In this document: positions 8,024 through 62,821 of the stretch, piece after piece
Layout: every line of letters begins with the position of its first letter
Numbering within the stretch: position 1 is the first letter of the stretch
Origin: Cyanophora paradoxa CCMP329
Lineage: Eukaryota > Plantae > Glaucophyta
Assembly (NCBI GenBank): GCA_004431415.1
Contig: QPMI01000022.1
Span: forward strand, 372,001-436,000
Length of the DNA stretch: 64,000 nucleotides
Direction of reading: 5' to 3'
Translations under genes and position numbers: made by a program
Notes under the pieces: generated by a model
Seen by the model: the letters and a program-made list of their open reading frames with translations, nothing else
Databases searched by the model: none
What the model was told of the DNA's origin: nothing

Positions 8024-11000
8024 ATTCACATGGAGTCTCCGCCAACGTCCCGCGCAGCCGCCTGACGGAGGAATTAATAATTTGCATAGAGCCAGAATTA
8101 CACGCGAGCGCGGCGAATTAATATTGTCGAACACATCGAATTCAGTGGGCTCACCAGCGAAGCGTGTCGCTGATGCCCTGCGAATTTTGCGTCATGATCA
8201 GATCTAGAGGTACCGGTGCGAGTTTCGCGAATCTCTAAATTCTCTAAATCTCAATTGGAGCCAGTCGAATTCGATATCGATCGCCTATAGATAACTTCGT
8301 AATATCCCAAACAATATCGATCGACTGGCGCAGATCGAGAACTCCAGCTACGAATTCGGGGTCCGAACTCGAGCGCACCCGGACGAACGCGGGGGCGCCC
8401 TTGAAGTACGCCTCGTAGATCCTCCGGCACCCTTCCCGCAGCGCGCGTACCTTGATCGAAATTCAATTCGATTGCGCCATTTATCACGAAAGAAAGATAA
8501 ATCGAGCGAGATTTAAGAGGTGCGATTTCTAATTTGCGATATCGATTGCAATTCGAACGAAGGTTATAATTAGGAGTAAGAGCGAGCTCGGACTCGAATT
8601 AAAGCGCGCCTGGTCGGGGCCGAAGGAGCGGAGGAGGGCGGGGAGGGCGAGCAGATCCGCCTCGGGGGCCCGCACCGCGCAGTCCTCCCAGCGGGCCACC
8701 TGCGCAGGAGCTCGCGATCGAGAGAAGCGAATTCGAAGCATATATATGTAAGGCGTGCGCCGCTTCAAATCGAGAAAATAGTGCGAAAGGGACGCGAGAA
8801 GCGGATTGGAGCGGAGAGGACCGGTGGGGAGGTGGTGGAGGAGTGGGTGGGGGCGGGGGGGGGGGGGGGGGGGGGGGCATGGGGGGATGGGGGGGGGGGA
8901 GGCGGAGGGGCGGGATCCGGAGGGGGAGGGGAGGGGAGAGGGGGGGGGGGAAGGGTGCGCATGTTAGGCGCGGGCGCCCGGCACCTCGCCCGGTGGGAGG
9001 CGGCCATGGGGAGGGAGTGAAGGGGGGGGGGGGGGGGACGGGGGGGGGAGGCGGAGGGCGGGATCCGATGATCCGGAGGGGGAGGGGGGGGGAAGGGGTG
9101 CGCATGTTAGGCGCGGGCGCCCGGTACCTCGTGGAAAGGCATGACGAAGTCGTCGACGAGGACAGCGGGGATGGAGCCTGCGTGCATGCGCATGTGCAAT
9201 TGCAAGCCCCGGGCCCGGCGCCCGGCCCGGGACGAGAATAATTATATAATGAGTAGGTACACAGCGTTCGCGATGCATTCTAACCTAGTAAGCTTAAGGC
9301 CGAATATCAATTTGAATATAAAAGTAGGCAAATGCAGGCTTATAAATTAGATTCGATCAACTGCGGAGTATACGCAGCAAATTGTATTTTCGCACCGGCA
9401 GCGAGCGTCTCAACGAGGCGATACGAGTGCGCCCCTGTATGGAATCATAATTAATCACAGCGACAGGATAACGTCATGGGGCCACATGCTCATATTATAA
9501 TTAGGTTCTGCACACGTATATATAGAATTACACGAGTTAATTTTAGTCAAGGCGAACCGTACCGTAGCCAGGGACAACGAGGCCGAACGTCGAATTTTGA
9601 AGAAGGTCCTGCATCCGCCCCGCTGCGAGGGCGCCGGCGCCCCAAATGAAACACACGTTTTAGTGCACGGGTTCCAAGGCCGCGCTTCAATATAAGCTTG
9701 TGATCGGGAGGTTTCGTAATTGAGACTTTCAGAACGTATATTATAATTAATAATTGGTATAAAAATGCCGAAAGGGATCGCAAATCAAAAATGCCGTAAA
9801 ATGCCGAAAGGGAAATCAAAATCGCAGCGGTCTAGATATGATGATTAATCAATTTAACTTCGAGTTCGTGCAGAACGGCACTTAATGTCAACTTAGTAAG
9901 CCCGCTTCGCAAAGCGCCTGTAAATTAAATGGTCTGCGCACGGAACTCTTTCCAGCGCCGGTCGTCCTCGCCGCACCGCTCGAGCTTGTCCTTGGCGGGG
10001 TCTGTGCATGCGCGCGCGGCCGCGGGGGCCGCGTATGCGCAGCACAAATAAATATTAATCATCGAATCGCTCGCGGATCGGATGCGTGCCGGACTGCAGC
10101 TTAAGCAAGCTCAAGCACGCGCACCGGCCCAATAACAGGCGGTGATCATCAGAATGTCATCGCCGTTGTCTATCCTGTACAACTGCGCGCGCGGAATTCG
10201 AAGTGCCCAGGAAAATAATTGTGCGCATCATGAATTCGAAGGTGAAGCTTAAGGCCGGGCATCGCGAAAAGAGATCTAGATCTAGATATTAAGCACGTAT
10301 AATGCGCGCCTCATTTCGAATCAATCCTCTGTCACTGTAGCGTATGATCTAGATATTAAGCACGTATAATGCGCGCCTCATTTCGAATCAATCCTCTGTC
10401 ACTGTAGCGTGTGCCCTTGAAAACGAGGAGGTGCTTTCTGCTGCGCAAAGGACGCGTACGTAGATGCGGCTGTGAGGGCTGTTTTTTGGTCTAAGTATAA
10501 GCTTTTTGCTTTTTAAATTACAACTAGTACTTATTTGAGGATCTCGAGGTGCTCACCTTGGCTCGTCAATTGGCAACGGGATCACTTGTTCGTCAGCTGG
10601 CCTTGGAGCGAGTGAGAGATTTGAATGCCCTTATAATTAAGTTTCATAGTGATCGAATGAAAGCCCCGGATCGGACCAGTGATTAGGAAGAGGGATAGAG
10701 ATGTCGAATCCTGGACGGAAATACGCCGGTTTCGCGTTGCTCCGGAGGAGAATTTCTTTTCCCCCAACTGTCCAGGGAATTATAGCGTTAACGTTAACGG
10801 TTATATAATTAGCTATAGAAATCAACGTTGGACAAAACTCTATCGCGGGACGCCGGCATTTAAATGAAAGATTGCATGTACATTGACCCCATGGCCAGAA
10901 AAAGAGTGCGGGAAAACAGTTTCTAGGGCATGATCGTGATTCAAGCTTTTCGCGAATGCGTCCACTAGTACTTGTCCGGCCAATGAATAGATCGATATCA

Positions 11001-23673: not shown

Positions 23674-24804
23674 ATGGCGGGAGCGTCGGTGGACAGCAGC
23701 ACGCAAGTGGAGCGGCCTTGCTGCAACGAGAAAGTCATGACGATCGTCGAGCACAGTCTGAATGTGCGTTGCCTTTGTGGTCCGCGCGACGGTAGCGGCG
23801 CCACCAGCTATCTGATGAACTTCGGAATTCCCACAGCACCTCAACGAGAGGCTTGCCGATAAGCAAGCGGAGGTGGACACTTTGCACCGAAGGTGGCCGA
23901 GATGGAGGCCAGGGAGAGAGCGAACGAATTCGTCGGACCGCAGATTCTGGGACTGACAAAGGTGCGCGTGCGATGCGCATGCGGCGCTCAGCATGCCTCA
24001 GCTCTGCGGCAGGACGTATGCGACAGGTACCGCGAGGTGAAAGAGGAGCTGAGCAAGTCTCAGAAGGCGCTGGCCGATGCGAACGCCCGAATCCGTGAGG
24101 TCGATCTGGGACTGACAAAGGTGCGCGTGCGATGCGCATGCGGCCGCTCAGCATGCCTCAGCTCTGCGGCAGGACGTATGCGACAGTACCGCGAGGTGAA
24201 AGAGGAGCTGAGCAAGTCTGAGAAGGCGCGGGCCGATGCGAACGCCCGAATCCGTGAGGTCGAGGAGGCGAGCTCGATCTTCGCAGTACGATGCTCGGAG
24301 CTCGCAGTGCGATGCCACGTGCCTTAGTTCTGCTCGCAGATCCTTGGCAAGAGGATGCGCGACGAATTGGAGTGCGGGTGCGCACGAAGGACAGTGCGTG
24401 GTCATTCCATTTGCTGCGCCTAGACGTGCCGCGCCTTTGCTGATAAATGTGCCCGATGCAGATCTCAAGGACATCATGGCCTACAGAGCGGGTTGCGACT
24501 ACATCGGTGTGATGCTGGATGCACGCCCTTAATGAGATCTTTGTAGGGCTTCAACTCCGAGAGATCCCCTCAGGCTTCATTGTTTTTCTGTTCAGATGCT
24601 TTTAAGTCCATATTGATTGCCTTTCTTGCCCGCGGCCCTGTGGCTTGTGCAGCGTGTCAAAGGAGCAAAAGTAGCTGCTTAAAGAATAATTGTACACAAA
24701 TGAAAGGGCACAAGCAAGGAACGTGCAAAGTGAAGGATGCGAAGGGCACATGCACACGAGTCACCTACTCCATCATTGACCTGTACATATCTATAGGTCT
24801 GTAG
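23674..24804 (+). CDS. Hypothetical cargo protein X: coiled-coil plus Cys-rich C-terminus, with duplicated exon
   Basis: MAGASVDSST...; an exon/intron unit is duplicated in tandem (~23947-24106 / ~24106-24263); DLKDIMAYRAGCDYIGVMLD; CAACQRSKSSC...HKQGTC. Confidence 0.5.
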
Positions 24805-54620: not shown

Positions 54621-57600
54621 ATGACGAAGAAGCGTAGGAAGAGCCACGGCCATCGCGGCAACGCCGGGGGCCAATCGTCCGATGGGGAAGGCGTCGCGGA
54701 TCCTACCTCGATCCTGTCCAAGGAGCTGCAGGCCGAGCTCGGGATCACGGCCGAGTGCGCCCCGTCCCGTACGCCTCCCTCGCGATCTCGCGCGCACAAG
54801 TGCTCAAACGATGCCTTTCGTGCGCCAGATACGGCGGAGCGGGCGCTGATGTCGTGCTCTTCAAGAAGCAGAAGACGGAGGTGCGCGAGTGGTCTCGGCC
54901 TCGCGATCGCGCGCGCGTACACGCTCATGTTGACCCGCTTTAGCAGAAGGGCCGCGGATCTGATGGTGAGGAGGCGGTCCCCGTGAAGCTGAGCAAGAAC
55001 CAGATGCGCAAGCTCAAGAAGCTCGAGGTCGGCCCGCCCGTCCCGTGCGGCATACGAGCGCGCGTTTCGACCCGTTCGCCGCAGGAGGAGAAGGTTAAGA
55101 AGGAGATGCGGTCCTCGCTCTATGAAACCCTCAAGTGCGCGACCCGCACGAACATGCGCGGGATCAAATCTCTAATCGCAGCGGTTCCGCAGCAAGACGA
55201 AGCTCGGCGAAGGACAGATGAAGCTCCTGCACTCCAGCGCGCGGCGCGGCCAGGTTCGTTCGATGCGGTCCCGCCCGCCCGCCGCCTTTCGCCGCCCGCA
55301 GCTCACGCCGCCCGCAGAAAGAGACGAAGCGCGAGCAGCTGAAGCGCGCGCTGGAGGAGAGGCGCGCGGGAATCCCCCAGTCCAACCCGGAGGTTCAGCT
55401 GGAGCAGACCGTGCACCGGCCCGGCGACAGCGACGGCGAGGACGGGGAGGAAGATGAGGAAGAGAAGCCGGCCTCCGTGCCGGGCCTGAAGGAGGCGCCG
55501 GCGGAGATCCCGCTCGCCGCGCGGCCCTTCGCAACGTCGGCGCGGTCGCTGGCGCGGGCGGTGCCGGGCATCGTCCCGGCCAAAGTGTCCACGCGCAAGA
55601 GCGGCGCCGGCGGGGCCGAGGCGGGGCGCGCCCCCGAGGAGCGGACCACAGCGACCATCGCGCAGGAGGCCGGCAAGGCGGCAACGGCGGCTGCTCCGCC
55701 CGAGCCGCCGAAGCCCGCGCCGGCGCCGGCGCCGGAGAAGCCGCTCTCGAAGGCCGCGGCGAAGCGCAAGCGGCGGAAGCAGACGCTCATGTTCGCCCAA
55801 GGCGCGGGCGGAGGCGACGTGGCGGACGAGGAAGAAGCGGCGGCGACGGCCGGCGCGGAGAAGGAGGAGGTCGCCGCAGCAGCGGCCGAGGAGCCGGCCG
55901 CCCCTCCGCCGACTAAGGCGCCCGAGGCCCCTCCCGCGTCGGCGCCGGCGCCGGCGGCCGTCCGGAAGGCCTTCTGGGTCCCCGTCAACCGCCCCAAGGC
56001 CGTCCAGGTAAGCTAGCCAGCTAACTAGCAGGCCGGCCGGCTGGCTGGCTGGCTCGCTGCCTAGCCTCCCATCCATCCATATCCTTATCCCCGCCCGCTC
56101 GTCTTACGCCTTGGCCGCCCGCCCGCCCCAGGACGCGCGCATGGGCCTCCCCGTCTGCGGCGAGGAGCAGGCGGTGATGGAGGCCGTGACGGGGAGCGCG
56201 GTGACCGTCATCTGCGGCGAGACCGGCAGCGGCAAGACGACGCAGGTCCGTCCGTCCCTCCGTCCGTCTGACCGGCGTCTCCTACTGATGCTTCTTCGCC
56301 CCGCAGGTCCCGCAGTTCCTGTACGAGGCGGGCTACGGGCACCCCGACGGACGTGCGCCGGCGCCCCCGCCCCCCCGCTCCCCTCGCGATGCATAGCCCG
56401 AGAGATGCCGGCCACGGCTAGCTATGGAGGGCCGGCCTCCGCCTCCCTCGGGCGGTTCTAAGACATCTAAGACATCCAAGACATCTGGCTTACTAAGCCT
56501 GATCGCAGCGACGCCCGGGATGATCGGGGTGACGGAGCCGCGGCGGGTGGCGGCGGTGAGCATGGCGAAGCGCGTGGCGCACGAGCTCAACGTCGGCTTC
56601 GGCCGCGAGGTCGCCTACCAGGTCCGTCCGCTATCAAGTTCTTAGGCGCTCAAGGCTTGCTCGCCGCCGCGCGACGGCCGCCTACGCCTGCCTTTCTTCC
56701 CCCTCAGCCGCCGCTGACCGCCCCCGCCCCCGCCCCCGCCCCCGCCCCCGCCCCCGCCAGGTGCGGCACGACAAGAACGTGGCCCGCGAGACGCGCGTCA
56801 AGTTCATGACCGACGGCATCCTCCTCCGCGAGGTCTGTTCCACATTCTATAAAGGCTTATGTTCTTAAGCTTTGGTGGGATTTAAATGCGTGTGTGCCGG
56901 TGATGATAAAAAGGTTTTTGGTTGACCCTCCTAGTGGCGGCTCGCCGCCCTGCGGACAACAACCCGCGCTGCTGAGGCACTCCCCTAGTCGCCCCGGCCT
57001 CTTCTTTCCCCCCCTCCCGCCCCTCCCGCCCTGACACACGACGGCGGCGGCGCCCCGCCCCCCCAAATTAGATCCAGGCGGACTTCCTGCTCCGGAATTA
57101 CTCAGCCATCATCATCGACGAGGCGCACGAGCGGTCAGTCTGCCCGCCCGCCCGCCCGCCCGCGCGCCCGCCTCCCGACGCCCCTAAGCTCAGCTAAGCT
57201 TAGTGTGGTTTAATTTGTTTCCGCGCAGGTCCGTCAACACGGACATCCTCGTGGGCCTGCTCTCCCGCATCGTACCCCTGCGCGCCGAGATGGCGGCGGC
57301 CGGCGAGCAGGGCCTGTACCCCCTCCGCCTCATCGTCATGTCCGCCACGCTCCGCGTGCGTCCATCTGATCCGATCCGATCTGATCTGATCTGATCTGAT
57401 CTGATCTGATCTGATTCGGGCAGGTCGAGGACTTCGTCTCGAACCCGCGCCTCTTCCCCACCCCCCCGCCCCTCATCCGCGTGGATGCCCGCCAGTACCC
57501 CGTCACCATCCACTTCAACCGTCGTACCCCCGAGCTCGACTACGTCTCCGAGGGTACGCCGCCGTCTACTCACAGCCGTACCCACGCCGCCTCACAGCCC

Positions 57601-60600
57601 CCATCGCAGCGTACAAGAAAGTGTGCAAGATCCACAAGAAGCTGCCCCCGGGCGGCGTGCTGGTGTTCCTCACGGGCCGCAAGGAGGTCGACGACCTGTG
57701 CCGCAAGCTCCGCCGCGAGTTCGACCCGCTCCGCCTCCTCAAGAAGCGGTGCGAGTGCTTGCGGCTCTCTCTAATGCTAGGAAGCTATCCGATCTGAGGC
57801 CGGCGCCGCGCAGGGAGAAGGCCCAAGCGCGCAAGAAGCGCGCGGCGGAGGCGGCGGCAGCAGCGGCGGCGGCGGTCGAGGGCGACGGGCCTCGCGCGCG
57901 GGCGTCGTCGTCGGCGGCGTCGGCGTCGGCCGCGCAGCAGGCGCGGGACCAGGGCCCCGCGAACCCGTGGGCCGGGCTCGACGAGGACACCGACGACGAA
58001 GAAGACGGCGCGAGCGTTGAAGCAGAGGCCGCGGAGGAGGAAGAGGCTGAGCAGGAAGAGGAGGCTGAGGAAGCGCTGGAGGGGGCCCTGGAGGCGGCGC
58101 GGCGGGCCCGCGTCGGTTTCGGCAACGAGGAGGAGGACGCGGAGGAGGACGAGGGCGAGGCCGGGGGCGAAGAAGAAGAGGAGGAGGAGGAGGAGGAGGG
58201 CGAGGAGGCAGGGGGGGAGGAGGACAGCGACGCCGAGTCCGACTCGGACGCCGAGGTCCGCTGGGCTTCGCTGGGCCTCGCCCCTGCAGCTGCTTAAGCA
58301 TTAAACATCAAAGATGCCGCGCTCACCTGTCCTCGTTCGTCCCTTCAGGTCGGGCCAGTGGACGTGTCTCCCCTCTACTCGATGCTCAGCACGCGGGAGC
58401 AGCTGCGCGCCCTGCGGCCCCCACGCGAGGGGTACCGCAAGTGAGCCCGCCAAGCCAAGCTTGCTCCGCCCCGACTAGCCCACCTTACTACCCCGCGCAG
58501 GATCGTCGTCGCGACGAACGTGGCCGAGACCAGCCTCACCATCCCCGTGCGCCCCTCCCCTCCCCGCCCGCGCTGTTTACAGCGCAGCGCTCTCGCCCTT
58601 GCTCCTCCCCCCCCTCGCTCACCGCCTCCTCCACCTCCGCAGGGCATCAAGTACGTGGTGGACAGCGGCAAGGCGAAAGAGCGCGTCTACGACGGCTACG
58701 GCGGCTGCGGCCTCAGCTCCTTTGTCGTCGACTGGATATCCAAGGCCTCCGCCGACCAGGTCCGTCCGCGTTAGTTAGCTGGTTATATACATTTAGCTAG
58801 TTAGCTATTATTAAGTGAGGTTTCTCGTCCCGTTTTCGCTTTCGTTGTTCCTTGAGAACCGCGCCTTTAGTGTCTTGCCAGCGATCCTCGTGAAATGAGC
58901 CGGCAGGATGGTCCGGCAGCGGAGACCAACGGGGGCCTAGCCCTTTGGACGCGCTCTTGCCTTGCCAGCCCCGTGCCTCTCGTGGCAATTGGGGGAGGCA
59001 AACGAGCGCGGCGATATTCTATTCTGCCCCTCCCCTCCCACTCTTCTAGCATTCTTTTAATCCAGTCTTTGTCTCTACAATCTTCTTCTACCCGCCTTCC
59101 ATCTTTCCTGATCTGATCTGATCTGACCCTCCTTCTCCTCGACGCGCAGCGGGCGGGGCGGGCGGGGCGCGTCGGGCCGGGCCACTGCTACCGCCTCTAC
59201 TCCTCCGCCGTCTTCACCGGCGAGGCGCGGCTCCCCCCCCCCCCCCTGCTCGGGCTCCTCCCTCGACCCTTCCATACCCCCCCCCCCCCCCCCGCCCCTC
59301 CCCGGCCCTTCTCCCCGCGGGCCCTCCCTGACTTGAGCTTCCCGCCTCCCGCCTGCGCAGTTCCCGAAGTTCTCGGAGCCCGAGATCCTGCGCACGCCCA
59401 TCGAGGGCGTCGTCCTCCAGATGAAGTTCATGGGGTACGCATTCTATTCGAATTAATTCACGAACTCTTTCTTGAAGCATTCTCAAGCGCTTAAGCATCT
59501 CTAGCGTCTCTTTGGAGATCCGCCACCCAAACTCTCTTCTAACTTCGACTCCTCGAGCCGCTCTGACTCTGCGGGTCCCCCTCCGCGCAGGATCCAGCGG
59601 GTGACGAGCTTCCCGTACCCGACGCCGCCCGAGCGGCCGGCGACGCGCGCCGCCGTCCGCCTCCTCACCGACCTGGGCGCCCTCCAGCCCCTGCCCCGCG
59701 GGTGCGCCCCGATCGAAGACCGCGGTAGAGCCTAGAAACCAAGCGGGCGAACCCGGCCTTCTCCATTCCCGTCCTGCCTCGCTCGAACTCACGACGGCGG
59801 GGCGGGGCAGGCCCGGGGCGGCTGAGCGCGACGTGGGGGACGCGGAGGAGATCACGGCCCTCGGCCGCGCCATGGCCGGTCAGCCCATCCATCCATCCGA
59901 TCCATCCGATTCGGTCTGATTCGATCTGATTTGATCGCAGCCTTCCCCGTGTCGCCGCGCTTCGCAAAGATGCTGCTGCTGGGCTGGCGCGGCGGCTGCA
60001 TGCCCTACGCCATCGCCCTCGTCGCGCTCTTGTCCGTCCAGGTACGCAAGATAGATAGATAGGTAGACACTGGTATTGGAGACGGCGTCGTTCTTACTCC
60101 TTTCTCGCTCGCTCCAGGACCTCTTCCGGCGCGAGGCGGTCGCCGCCGAGGACGAGGCGGAGGGCGGAGGCGAGGGCGGCGAGGGCGACGGCGCGGCCGC
60201 CGCCGCCGCCGCCAAGGAGAAGGCCAAGGTCCGATCGTACTATTCTTCTAGACTGTTTGTTCTACTGCACGCGCTGAGACGGCGGGCAGCGGGAGCGGGC
60301 CGCGATGTACCGCTGGCTCCACGCCGAGAGCGACCTCCTGGGAGCCCTCCGCGCCCTCGGCGCCATGGAGCACGCGGCGGAGGGGATGGACGAGGCCGGC
60401 GTCGAGGCCTGGTGCCTCGAGAACGGCCTCCTACCAAAGGCGAGCGCGCGGATTCGATCCAAATTTGATCTCTAGATTTGATCTGATAGGCCCTCTGCAG
60501 AGCGTGAAGGAGGCGCAGGACCTGCGGGCGCAGCTCACGCGCATCGTGGGCTCGCTGTACCCCTCGCGGGCGGCCGGACTGGGCGCCCGCATGCCGGGGC

Positions 60601-61545
60601 CGCCCACGGCCGACCAGGAGGCGCTGCTCCGGCAGCTCCTCGCGGCCGGACTCGTCGACCAGGTCGCCCGGCGCGTGCCCAGCACCGACCCGCGGGCCGC
60701 GTCGCTGCCGGGCCGGCGCGTGGCCTACGAGCCCTGCGCGCTCATGCCCGGCGAGGCGGCCGGCGGCGAGTCGGAGCCGGCCTTCATCCACCCCTCCTCG
60801 TTCGTCTGCGGGGCGCCCCCCGACTTCCTGGTCTACCGCGAGATCATCCGCACCTCCCGGCCCTACATGGTGCTTGCATTTTAATGATCGGATCTCGGAG
60901 CTAGCTAGCTTCTTCTAGCTTCTAGCTCTAGCGCATAAATATAAGATCTTGAAGCTAGCTGGCTGTCTTCGCGCTCCTTCGGGCTTGTCTAACTTTGGCT
61001 TTCCTCGGCAGCGCGGCGTGACGGCGATCTCGCCCGACTGGCTCCCCCGCCTCGCCGGCCCGACGCTCGTGCAGCTCGGGCCGCCGCTGGACGCCCCGCC
61101 GCCCCGATATGACGCCGAGTCGGACGGCGCCGTCTGCTGGCGCCAGCCGACCTACGGCCCCCGCGGCTGGGAGCTGCCGCCCGTGCGGGGCCCGCACCCC
61201 GACCCCCAGCGCCGCTGCGCCCTCTTCGGGCGGGCCCTGCTGGAGGGAAAGGCGTACCCCGCCTTCGCCTCCTTCACGCCCCAGCTGGACACGAAGCCCT
61301 CGGTCCTCGCCGCCTCCGACACGCGCCTCCTGGCGCACGGAAAGGCCTCGGCCCTCGTCGCCGCGCTGGCCTCGCGGGGCGTCGAGAGCCGCAAGACGGC
61401 CGAGGCGGCGTGGGCGGCCGACCCGCGGTTCCTGCTGGAGGAGGTCGCCTCGTGGCTGCCGGCGGCGGAGCGCCGCGCCCTCGCCGCCGCCTGGCCCCCG
61501 CTCGGCGGCGGCAAGGCCAAGCACAAGAAGAAGCCGCAGCGGTAG
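54621..61545 (+). CDS. DHX37: DEAH-box RNA helicase DHX37/Dhr1 (small-subunit ribosome biogenesis)
   Basis: [87 protein letters not shown] and GHCYRLYSS. The DHX37-type N-terminus ([14 protein letters not shown]...[17 protein letters not shown]) and C-terminus (FGRALLEG...[10 protein letters not shown]) are present. Confidence 0.93.
56894..56980 (+). ncRNA. Intronic box C/D snoRNA candidate (copy 1)
   Basis: Terminal stem GTGCC/GGCAC, box C GTGATGA (56900) and box D CTGA (56972), inside DHX37 intron ~56833-57071; a near-identical second copy exists. Confidence 0.82.
58857..59019 (+). ncRNA. Intronic box H/ACA-like snoRNA candidate (copy 1)
   Basis: 5' hairpin (CCGC/GCGG, GCC/GGC, pocket, GTCTTGCC/GGCAGGAT), box H AGACCA (58923), 3' hairpin (CGCGCTC/GAGCGCG, TGCCT/AGGCA) and terminal ATA-NNN, inside DHX37 intron ~58760-59149. 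Confidence 0.68.
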
Positions 61546-61675
61546 AGGTGAGACCGGTTAGTTTAGTTTAGATTCATTTCGGCGATTCGCATCCCTTCTC
61601 GTTTCCCGTTTTCTACCTAGTATAGTCCCGGCTTCTAGGCCTCTAGTCCCGTTTTCGCTTTCGTTGTTTCTTCGG

Positions 61676-62230
61676 AACCGCGCCTTTAGTGTCTTGCCAG
61701 CGATCCTCGTGAAATGAGCCGGCAGGATGGTCCGGCAGCGGAGACCAACGGGGGCCTAGCCCTTTGGACGCGCTCTTGCCTTGCCAGCCCCGTGCCTCTC
61801 GTGGCAATTGGGGGAGGCAAACGAGCGCGGCGATATTTACCTGCGATCCCTCTTTTCGTTTCAGTTTACAGAACCGCGCCTTTAGTGTCTTGCCAGCGAT
61901 CCTCGTGAAATGAGCCGGCAGGATGGTCCGGCAGCGGAGACCAACGGGGGCCTAGCCCTTTGGACGCGCTCTTGCCTTGCCAGCCCCGTGCCTCTCGTGG
62001 CAATTGGGGGAGGCAAACGAGCGCGGCGATATTTACCTGCGATCCCTCTTTTCGTTTCAGTTTACAGAACCGCGCCTTTAGTGTCTTGCCAGCGATCCTC
62101 GTGAAATGAGCCGGCAGGATGGTCCGGCAGCGGAGACCAACGGGGGCCTAGCCCTTTGGACGCGCTCTTGCCTTGCCAGCCCCGTGCCTCTCGTGGCAAT
62201 TGGGGGAGGCAAACGAGCGCGGCGATATTC
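61676..62230 (+). ncRNA. Three tandem copies (196-bp period) of the H/ACA-like snoRNA candidate
   Basis: Copies at 61676-61838, 61872-62034 and 62068-62230 match 58857-59019; conservation stops just after the ATA box. Confidence 0.65.
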
Positions 62231-62436
62231 TCCTATTTCAATAGATTAAAGCGTAGCTATCTCGTGATTCTTTAAGACCTTCTTTTGAGCTCGCGATTGA
62301 CTCGCCCTGTCCGCAGGAGTGCGTAGACACTCCCTCCAGGACCGGCAAGCGCACACAAGCGACGCGGAGGATCCGAATCCCAAGGTTCGCTCATCTTTCT
62401 CGCCGCTCAAATGATGCTCTAAAGAAAGAAAGAAAA

Positions 62437-62525
62437 AGTGCCGGTGATGATAAAAAGGTTTTTGGTTGACCCTCCTAGTGGCGGCTCGCCGTCCTGCGGA
62501 CAACAACCCGCGCTGCTGAGGCACT
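62437..62525 (+). ncRNA. Box C/D snoRNA candidate (copy 2)
   Basis: AGTGCC-G-GTGATGA...CTGA-GGCACT; one internal substitution versus copy 1; lies in a putative intron 62385-62594. Confidence 0.8.
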
Positions 62526-62821
62526 CCCGATCGCTTGCATAGATCCCATCGCTCACTCTTGCTTTCCAAACAATTCACTCGCTTTGTTGTGCAGGATCGG
62601 CAGACTCGACGATTGTGCGGGGGCAAATTGCTGCTGGCCTACAGCGATGCGCGTGCCCTGTGTTATCAAACGGAGATATCGATGTGCGCATGTACAAAAC
62701 ACGATTTCGATCTTCTAGTTGTGCCCCGCGCCGCGGCGCCACCAAGACAATGCAGGGGGGGCCGGGGCCGGGCATGTAGGCTCCTAGCTATAGCTCCCCT
62801 TGGCGGGGGGAAATGAGGGAG

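What the first reader, a model, noticed from the sequence alone, without database searches (positions are those of the whole stretch)
61546..62600. DHX37 appears to have duplicated its intronic snoRNAs into 3'-UTR introns right after the stop codon
Seen: TAG (61543-45) is followed by AG|GTGAGA, a donor at 61548. The putative intron runs to CCGCAG at 62316 and holds three H/ACA-like copies. A short non-coding exon (62317-62384) follows, then an intron 62385-62594 holding the second C/D copy. Known: snoRNAs are often hosted by ribosome-biogenesis genes, and junctions more than ~50 nt after a stop can trigger NMD. Inference: this is a hybrid coding/non-coding host transcript with a polycistronic intron. 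It could raise snoRNA dose and uncouple it from helicase output via NMD or alternative polyadenylation.
Basis: partly seen in the sequence, partly recalled or inferred. Interest (0 to 1): 0.7.

Follow-up and report, generated by a model that had tools for sequence, protein, structure and literature searches.

The report
DHX37 tail introns repeat its snoRNAs
In the alga Cyanophora paradoxa, the gene for the ribosome-building helicase DHX37 has two spliced introns after its stop codon that carry extra, near-identical copies of two likely ribosome-modifying guide RNAs also found in its coding introns, a variant of a layout already described in fruit flies.

Summary
Mostly confirmed; a variant of a known layout. 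The gene is Cyanophora paradoxa DHX37. Both post-stop junctions occur in RNA-type contigs: 61547/62317 in 2 of 2 and 62384/62595 in 4 of 4 runs, and in 0 of 2 DNA runs. The 91-nt element is a box C/D RNA predicted to methylate the LSU guanosine that U36 targets in Arabidopsis (Gm2237). The 163-nt element is H/ACA-like with two plausible targets, on weaker evidence; Rfam names neither. Three tandem copies are in the window, but contig depths of two DNA runs fit two, while RNA runs fit three. Copies are 99-100% identical over about the predicted mature RNA, with mostly unalignable flanks and swapped order, so this looks like separate copying followed by selection or gene conversion; the direction is unknown. 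NMD is untested: one junction lies 70 nt past the stop, and no early-ending mRNA was seen. Drosophila minifly/Nop60B has snoRNA isoforms in 3'-UTR introns, and this scan noted similar tails in three other genomes.

The parts
61012..61547 (+). Last coding exon of DHX37 (stop TAG 61543-61545 plus 2 nt of UTR)
   Evidence: Pfam DHX37_C E 2.9e-13; aligns to the C-terminus of mouse and human DHX37; RNA contigs cover 61011-61548
61548..62316 (+). 3'-UTR intron 1 (769 nt, GT..AG), holding the tandem H/ACA-like copies; also seen unspliced
   Evidence: joint in X15 and X17, not in X1, X3; contigs across both intron ends and the spacer in X15, X17
61675..61837 (+). H/ACA-like RNA copy 2 (H box 61742-61747, ATA box 61833-61835; predicted 3' end about 61838)
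61871..62033 (+). H/ACA-like RNA copy 3 (one tandem unit may be missing in some samples)
   Evidence: depth bookkeeping
62067..62229 (+). H/ACA-like RNA copy 4
61838..61870 (+). 33-nt pyrimidine-rich spacer (repeated at 62034-62066), weakly structured
   Evidence: present in contigs of X1, X3, X15, X17
62317..62384 (+). Non-coding exon (68 nt)
   Evidence: flanked by both joints; no significant homology to the coding gene, 7 of 100 shuffles score as high
62385..62594 (+). 3'-UTR intron 2 (210 nt, GT..AG); junction 70 nt after the stop in the spliced RNA
   Evidence: joint in 4 of 4 RNA-type runs; distance
62438..62528 (+). Box C/D RNA copy 2 (stem 62438-62442/62520-62524, box C 62444-62450, extra-pairing element 62462-62469, D guide 62506-62514, box D 62516-62519)
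62595..62716 (+). Last non-coding exon (3' end approximate)
   Evidence: RNA contigs end at 62716 (X15) and 62706 (X17) while DNA contigs go on to 62808: weak hint only
56894..56984 (+). Box C/D RNA copy 1, in coding intron 56833-57071
   Evidence: intron joint in 4 of 4 runs, ends read
58856..59018 (+). H/ACA-like RNA copy 1, in coding intron 58760-59149
   Evidence: intron joint in 4 of 4 runs, ends read

Best explanation
The DHX37 transcript of Cyanophora paradoxa splices two introns after its stop codon, and these hold extra copies of a box C/D RNA and an H/ACA-like RNA that likely guide rRNA modification, so each transcript would release several copies of the same two guides. Shown: gene identity, true stop, both junctions, identical copies, box motifs. 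Inferred: the C/D RNA would methylate the LSU G equal to Arabidopsis 25S Gm2237, helped by an adjacent 8-bp extra pairing; the H/ACA-like RNA would pseudouridylate one U in the LSU 3' domain (5' hairpin) and perhaps the 18S U equal to yeast 1415 (3' hairpin). The RNAs would be trimmed out of debranched introns, and the tandem copies would need a cut in the spacer. The two RNAs were likely copied separately at DNA level some time ago, and selection, probably with gene conversion, keeps the RNA part identical while flanks drift. The tandem unit number likely varies between samples (2 or 3). The likely effect is a higher guide dose tied to a ribosome-biogenesis promoter; NMD control is possible but not needed to explain the layout.
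For: Junctions in RNA-type runs and not DNA runs. C/D: boxes C and D with a 5-bp terminal stem, and these two copies are the only such hits in the window; all 14 weak Rfam hits on copy 1 are C/D families; 9 Watson-Crick pairs to a conserved LSU site, found in 3 of the LSU segments that reach it (L037, L030, L008), reached by 81 of 2000 shuffles; the D+5 base is the G of A-G-C-G-C-G that is Gm2237, guide U36, in Arabidopsis RiboMeth-seq (PMC8053127 table and supplement rows); an 8-bp extra pair lies directly beside the target, a pattern that paper calls frequent; copy 2 ends 70 nt before the 3' splice site, the spacing noted for mfl snoRNAs. H/ACA: identity starts 3 nt before hairpin 1 and ends 2 nt after an ATA box; hairpin 1 pocket gives 10+6 pairs around an LSU U, 14 nt from the H box, reached by 38 of 1000 shuffles; the best hit of hairpin 2 is an 18S U 13 nt before the G matching Arabidopsis Gm1434 / yeast Gm1428, i.e. 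yeast 1415, which depends on snR83. Flanks mostly unalignable, about 36 nt shared upstream of copies 1 and 2.
Against: No small-RNA data: the mature RNAs are not shown. No Rfam family reaches its threshold. The H/ACA fold is not better than shuffles (z -1.55, 14 of 200), has an extra small hairpin and ATA instead of ACA. The hairpin 2 match is only 3+6 pairs, 13 nt from the box, and 37 of 60 shuffles score as well. The hairpin 1 null used 9 registers centred on the best hit after 16 had been seen, so 38/1000 is optimistic. Targets were tested on rDNA of other eukaryotes, not Cyanophora; LSU model positions 2290-2972 and snRNAs were not covered. Copy-number reading rests on contig depths, which the tool says are no copy number. 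No related locus was found to test conservation.
Confidence: 0.75

Rival explanations
1. NMD-coupled control: the junction 70 nt after the stop marks DHX37 mRNA for decay, so the gene can be transcribed hard for snoRNAs while helicase output stays low; retention of UTR intron 1 adds a second switch.
For: Junction 2 is beyond the 50-55 nt limit given for plants (PMC4417159 passages; distance). Unspliced intron 1 contigs exist in X15 and X17, giving an 839-nt distance to junction 2. Human snoRNA hosts are enriched for NMD isoforms and intron retention (PMC4233243 passages).
Against: No isoform without junction 2 was seen, so there is no visible NMD-proof form to switch to (contigs drop rare forms). 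Junction 1 is only 2 nt past the stop. Whether this alga has junction-dependent NMD is unknown (searches gave no paper on it, by their listings).
Confidence: 0.2
2. Neutral drift: the snoRNAs were copied into any expressed intron, the extra copies and tandem units are redundant, and copy number wanders without effect.
For: Depths fit two tandem copies in X1 and X3 but three in the window and roughly in X15 and X17. snoRNA position and number drift in many lineages (PMC3511168 abstract and passages).
Against: Identity is 163 of 163 and 90 of 91 over the RNA while flanks are unalignable, so all copies are held by selection or conversion. This rival can be true together with the best explanation; it differs only on whether dose matters.
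Confidence: 0.3
3. The 163-nt element is not an rRNA guide but another structured RNA (orphan H/ACA, scaRNA, or a small mobile repeat).
For: No Rfam H/ACA hit even at E 10; fold z -1.55; marginal target statistics; tandem expansion.
Against: All four copies are intronic, on the sense strand of a ribosome-biogenesis gene; ends of identity fit H/ACA ends; canonical 14-nt pocket-to-H-box distance.
Confidence: 0.15
4. The third tandem copy is an assembly error (over-expanded repeat).
For: In DNA runs core/spacer depth is 3.25 (X1) and 3.05 (X3), as expected for two tandem copies (3.0), not three (2.0).
Against: RNA-type runs give 1.70 and 1.94, nearer three copies. The spacer exists in all 4 runs laid, so at least two tandem copies are real. 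The DNA runs need not be the assembled strain.
Confidence: 0.3

Closest known systems
Drosophila minifly/Nop60B (mfl) 3'-UTR intronic snoRNA cluster (PMC1821038; abstract, section 7 and passages read)
   Same: A ribosome-biogenesis protein gene with an intronic snoRNA plus duplicated snoRNA isoforms in introns of its 3' UTR; C/D copies about 70 nt before the 3' splice site.
   Different: mfl keeps one RNA per intron, its UTR RNAs differ from snoRNA H1, and alternative poly(A) sites select them. Here the same two RNAs sit in both coding and UTR introns, one UTR intron holds a tandem array, and no alternative end was seen.
Intronic snoRNA clusters of green algae and plants (Ostreococcus clusters 3 and 5, PMC7671301 passages; the Chlamydomonas paper was seen only as its cited title, not held)
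   Same: Several snoRNAs in one intron; hosts often ribosome-biogenesis genes; multi-copy isoforms.
   Different: Here the cluster is identical tandem copies in a post-stop intron, in a glaucophyte.
Arabidopsis U36 (guides 25S Am2221 and Gm2237; PMC8053127 passages and supplement rows)
   Same: The D guide points at the same G by the D+5 rule.
   Different: No guide for the A2221 site was found; the 5' half pairs instead with the 8 nt just before the target. No Rfam U36 match.
Yeast snR83 (18S pseudouridines 1290 and 1415; PMC9045821 passages)
   Same: Best hit of the 3' hairpin is the 1415-equivalent U.
   Different: Match not significant alone; the 5' hairpin points to LSU, not 18S 1290; no Rfam match.
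Human NMD-sensitive snoRNA host genes (PMC4233243 passages)
   Same: Multi-snoRNA host with intron retention and a junction past a stop codon.
   Different: NMD not shown here; the junction appears constitutive rather than an alternative isoform.

Membership tests
DHX37/Dhr1 helicase | DEAH helicase with OB fold and DHX37 C-terminal domain | tested here: met
   OB_NTP_bind E 3.2e-12, DHX37_C E 2.9e-13 on single exons; best PDB hits mouse and human DHX37
Box C/D guide snoRNA | Box C and box D with terminal stem | tested here: met
Box C/D guide snoRNA | At least 9 bp antisense to rRNA upstream of D, D+5 on a methylated base | tested here: met
   9 bp on proxy rRNAs, 81 of 2000 shuffles; D+5 equals Arabidopsis Gm2237. 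Cyanophora rRNA itself not available
Box C/D guide snoRNA | Recognisable D'/C' pair | tested here: inconclusive
   only degenerate candidates by eye; no target for a D' guide in the rRNA parts held
Box C/D guide snoRNA | Stable small RNA bound to fibrillarin | not testable with these tools
   only contigs were available; intron 2 has no RNA cover
U36 / snoU36a family | Rfam match and dual guide for Am2221 and Gm2237 | tested here: not met
   not among 14 hits at E<=10; no A2221 guide. Works like U36 at one site, not filed as a member
Box H/ACA guide snoRNA | Hairpin - H box - hairpin - ACA box 3 nt from the end | tested here: inconclusive
   H box after hairpin 1 and ATA 2 nt before the end of identity, but an extra hairpin, ATA for ACA, fold z -1.55
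Box H/ACA guide snoRNA | Bipartite pocket with target U 14-16 nt from the box | tested here: inconclusive
   hairpin 1: 16 pairs, 14 nt, 38 of 1000 shuffles; hairpin 2: 9 pairs, 13 nt, 37 of 60 shuffles
Box H/ACA guide snoRNA | Match to a curated family | tested here: not met
   no H/ACA family at E<=10
mfl-type host with snoRNAs in 3'-UTR introns | Post-stop introns spliced as part of the coding transcript | tested here: met
   contig joins the stop-bearing exon to 62317
mfl-type host with snoRNAs in 3'-UTR introns | Alternative poly(A) sites selecting snoRNA sets; one RNA per intron | tested here: not met
   intron 1 holds 2-3 copies; no contig ends early, though contigs cannot show ends well
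EJC-dependent NMD target | Junction more than 50-55 nt past the stop | tested here: met
   70 nt; rule from PMC4417159
EJC-dependent NMD target | mRNA stabilised when NMD or translation is blocked | not testable with these tools
   no such data

The most novel reading that the evidence does not exclude
DHX37 carries a gene-internal snoRNA dosage cassette: the same two guides sit in coding introns and in post-stop introns, are kept identical by gene conversion, and the tandem H/ACA array changes copy number between strains; slow splicing of that array and a junction 70 nt past the stop would feed snoRNP assembly back on helicase mRNA level through NMD.
Probability: 0.12. Interest if true: 0.6.

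Novelty: new variant of a known kind. Interest (0 to 1): 0.35.

Why it matters
It extends snoRNA-bearing 3'-UTR introns to a glaucophyte, where 13 papers listed for 'Cyanophora' plus 'snoRNA' showed no snoRNA survey by title or abstract. It gives two candidate guide RNAs with predicted sites, and a natural test of whether junction-dependent NMD works in this lineage: an apparently constitutive junction 70 nt past the stop of a conserved ribosome-biogenesis gene. Identical cores in unalignable flanks make a compact case for studying how snoRNA copies are homogenised. The general layout is already published, so a specialist would find it neat rather than startling.

Tried and rejected
Whole genome not held, so other copies of the two RNAs, NMD genes and Cyanophora rRNA could not be searched. 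Rfam: 0 hits at gathering score in the window; the weak snoZ157 hit (21.3 bits against 55) is read as generic C/D shape, since its guides differ. No RNA holder is on record as RNA and no raw reads were listed; 6 of 24 listed runs were laid. No RNA cover of UTR intron 2 (62387-62590): says nothing on the mature C/D RNA. Eukaryotic rDNA motif: 0 hits in viral contigs; proxy rDNA came from contigs in prokaryote assemblies; a search for the missing LSU middle gave nothing (no answer, 0 of 1 genome). Segmental duplication of the gene's own exon-intron block: rejected, none of 6 UTR pieces beats shuffles (7, 9, 21, 37, 13, 78 of 100) and the order is swapped. Retroposition: not favoured, no A tail 3' of the copies and about 36 nt of upstream flank is shared. 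A separate non-coding host gene: rejected by the joint from the stop exon. Nested splicing at the AG-ending spacer, or use of the GT at 61542: no such joint (contigs drop rare forms). A full spliced coding sequence was not assembled; the gene was identified from single exons and a stored protein. Paper searches; none listed this locus by title or abstract; the precedent came from earlier scan notes.

Full report
Gene and organism. The last two coding exons match OB_NTP_bind and DHX37_C and align to mouse and human DHX37 up to their last few residues, so TAG 61543-61545 is the real stop. The last exon is 100% identical to P0001, listed as a Cyanophora paradoxa protein in EukProt. No whole genome was held.

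Sequence check. A 163-nt core occurs identically at 58856, 61675, 61871 and 62067, the last three as a 196-nt tandem array; a 91-nt element occurs at 56894 and 62438 with one difference. The first copies lie in coding introns 56833-57071 and 58760-59149, both skipped in 4 of 4 RNA-type runs (where 15 of 40 joints were shown; ends read).

Splicing. I laid 6 of the 24 listed runs; all are contigs, and four are only guessed to be RNA. Those four skip GT..AG introns along the gene and leave the DNA after 62828 bare. Junction 62384/62595 is in 4 of 4 (three studies). Junction 61547/62317 is in 2 of 2 laid on the narrow stretch (two studies) and in 0 of 2 DNA runs. Its contig has 27 letters on the short side, below the tool's bridging rule, but is the length expected for such a bubble. 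It joins the stop-bearing exon to the non-coding exon, so the tail belongs to DHX37 transcripts. Unspliced intron 1 is also present (contigs over both ends and the spacer, depths 20.9/36.3/24 in X15 and 9.5/17.3/12.5 in X17, against 25.6 and 19.1 for the spliced joint); intron 2 has no cover. RNA contigs stop at 62716 and 62706, a weak hint of the 3' end, giving a spliced UTR of about 190 nt.

Copy number. Core-to-spacer depth should be about 3.0 for two tandem copies and 2.0 for three. DNA runs give 3.25 and 3.05, and a two-copy model fits their contigs better (log residual 0.13 and 0.11 against 0.32 and 0.31). RNA runs give 1.70 and 1.94. Depth is not a clean copy number and RNA may hold processing intermediates, so this is a hint: at least two copies are real, the third is strain-variable or an assembly expansion.

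The C/D RNA. It has box C, box D and a 5-bp terminal stem; only these two copies pass such a scan in the window. Rfam gives only weak C/D-type hits (best 21.3 bits against 55). On eukaryotic rDNA taken from contigs in prokaryote assemblies, nine bases before box D pair perfectly with a conserved LSU site; 81 of 2000 shuffles do as well. The D+5 base is the G in the A-G-C-G-C-G run that is Gm2237 in Arabidopsis, guided by U36 (PMC8053127, passages and supplement rows). Eight more bases in the 5' half pair with the rRNA directly before the target; that paper reports adjacent extra pairs as common. No guide for U36's second site was found, so it works like U36 at one site but is not filed as U36.

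The H/ACA-like RNA. Identity among copies begins 3 nt before hairpin 1 and ends 2 nt after an ATA box, close to expected mature ends; an H box follows hairpin 1; a small extra hairpin precedes hairpin 2. The fold is not special (z -1.55) and Rfam has no H/ACA hit. Over 16 registers, hairpin 1's best match is 10+6 pairs around a U in the LSU 3' domain, 14 nt from the H box, seen in the one proxy that covers this region; 38 of 1000 shuffles reach it, with 9 registers chosen after the fact. I did not establish whether that U is modified in any organism. Hairpin 2's best match on the L037 set is 3+6 pairs at an 18S U 13 nt before the G equal to Arabidopsis Gm1434 and yeast Gm1428, hence yeast 1415, an snR83-dependent pseudouridine (PMC9045821 passages); 37 of 60 shuffles score as well. 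The class call is likely, not shown. LSU positions 2290-2972 and snRNAs were not tested.

History. Flanks are unalignable except about 36 nt upstream of H/ACA copies 1 and 2 (31 of 36 identical) and a fainter echo in the spacer. None of six UTR pieces resembles the coding gene beyond shuffles, and the order is C/D then H/ACA in the coding part but reversed in the tail. So the RNAs were copied separately, not as a block, and long enough ago for flanks to decay; near-perfect cores then need strong selection or gene conversion (inference). Which copy came first cannot be told. No related locus was found: 0 of 120 metagenome loci held DHX37.

NMD. Junction 1 is 2 nt and junction 2 is 70 nt past the stop (839 nt if intron 1 is kept). 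The plant rule is more than 50-55 nt (PMC4417159 passages), and human snoRNA hosts often make NMD isoforms (PMC4233243 passages). But no isoform lacking junction 2 was seen, and searches for NMD in this alga listed nothing on point. The idea stays open at about 20%.

Comparison and verdict. Drosophila minifly/Nop60B already shows duplicated snoRNA isoforms in 3'-UTR introns of a ribosome-biogenesis gene (PMC1821038, abstract, section 7, passages), a lead taken from earlier scan notes on other genomes. Intronic clusters are known in green algae (PMC7671301 passages), and a Plasmodium snoRNA lies in a 3' UTR (PMC2656528 passages). What differs here is the same two RNAs in both coding and post-stop introns of one gene, and a tandem, possibly copy-variable array in one UTR intron, in a glaucophyte. 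New variant of a known kind; interest 0.35. Supplements of bioRxiv preprints were not visible and could hold Cyanophora non-coding annotations.

Noticed in passing
window 58760-59149 and 54621-57071: The public model P0001 (951 aa) looks mis-annotated: residues 388-421 are translated from the H/ACA-like RNA (they match the tandem copies at 100%) although RNA contigs skip the whole intron, and it starts near 57066 while spliced RNA contigs and helicase motif I lie upstream from about 54510.
   Followed up: partly
window 59225-59360 and about 60440-60500: GC-AG introns in DHX37: the first fits a 136-nt RNA joint, the second is read from sequence only.
   Followed up: partly
window 58820-58855, 61640-61674, 61838-61870: A U-rich stretch precedes every H/ACA-like copy, well kept before copies 1 and 2 and degenerate in the spacer; leftover homology or a processing signal.
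   Followed up: partly
window 61542: A GT overlapping the stop codon resembles a donor; its use would add two residues and move the stop into the next exon. No such joint.
   Followed up: partly
window 23946-24263 and 10279-10410: Near-perfect two-copy tandem repeats of 159 nt (97%) and 67 nt (100%); other local duplications or assembly expansions.
   Followed up: no
L115:1772-1848, L168, L182: Three similar metagenome sequences with box C, the same D guide and a 9-nt complement to the rRNA just upstream of the target: possible relatives of this C/D guide in another eukaryote; no Rfam family.
   Followed up: partly
L001-L062: At least 62 contigs in prokaryote genome records carry a eukaryotic LSU motif; 10 of 10 scanned hold eukaryotic rRNA genes, likely contamination.
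   Followed up: partly
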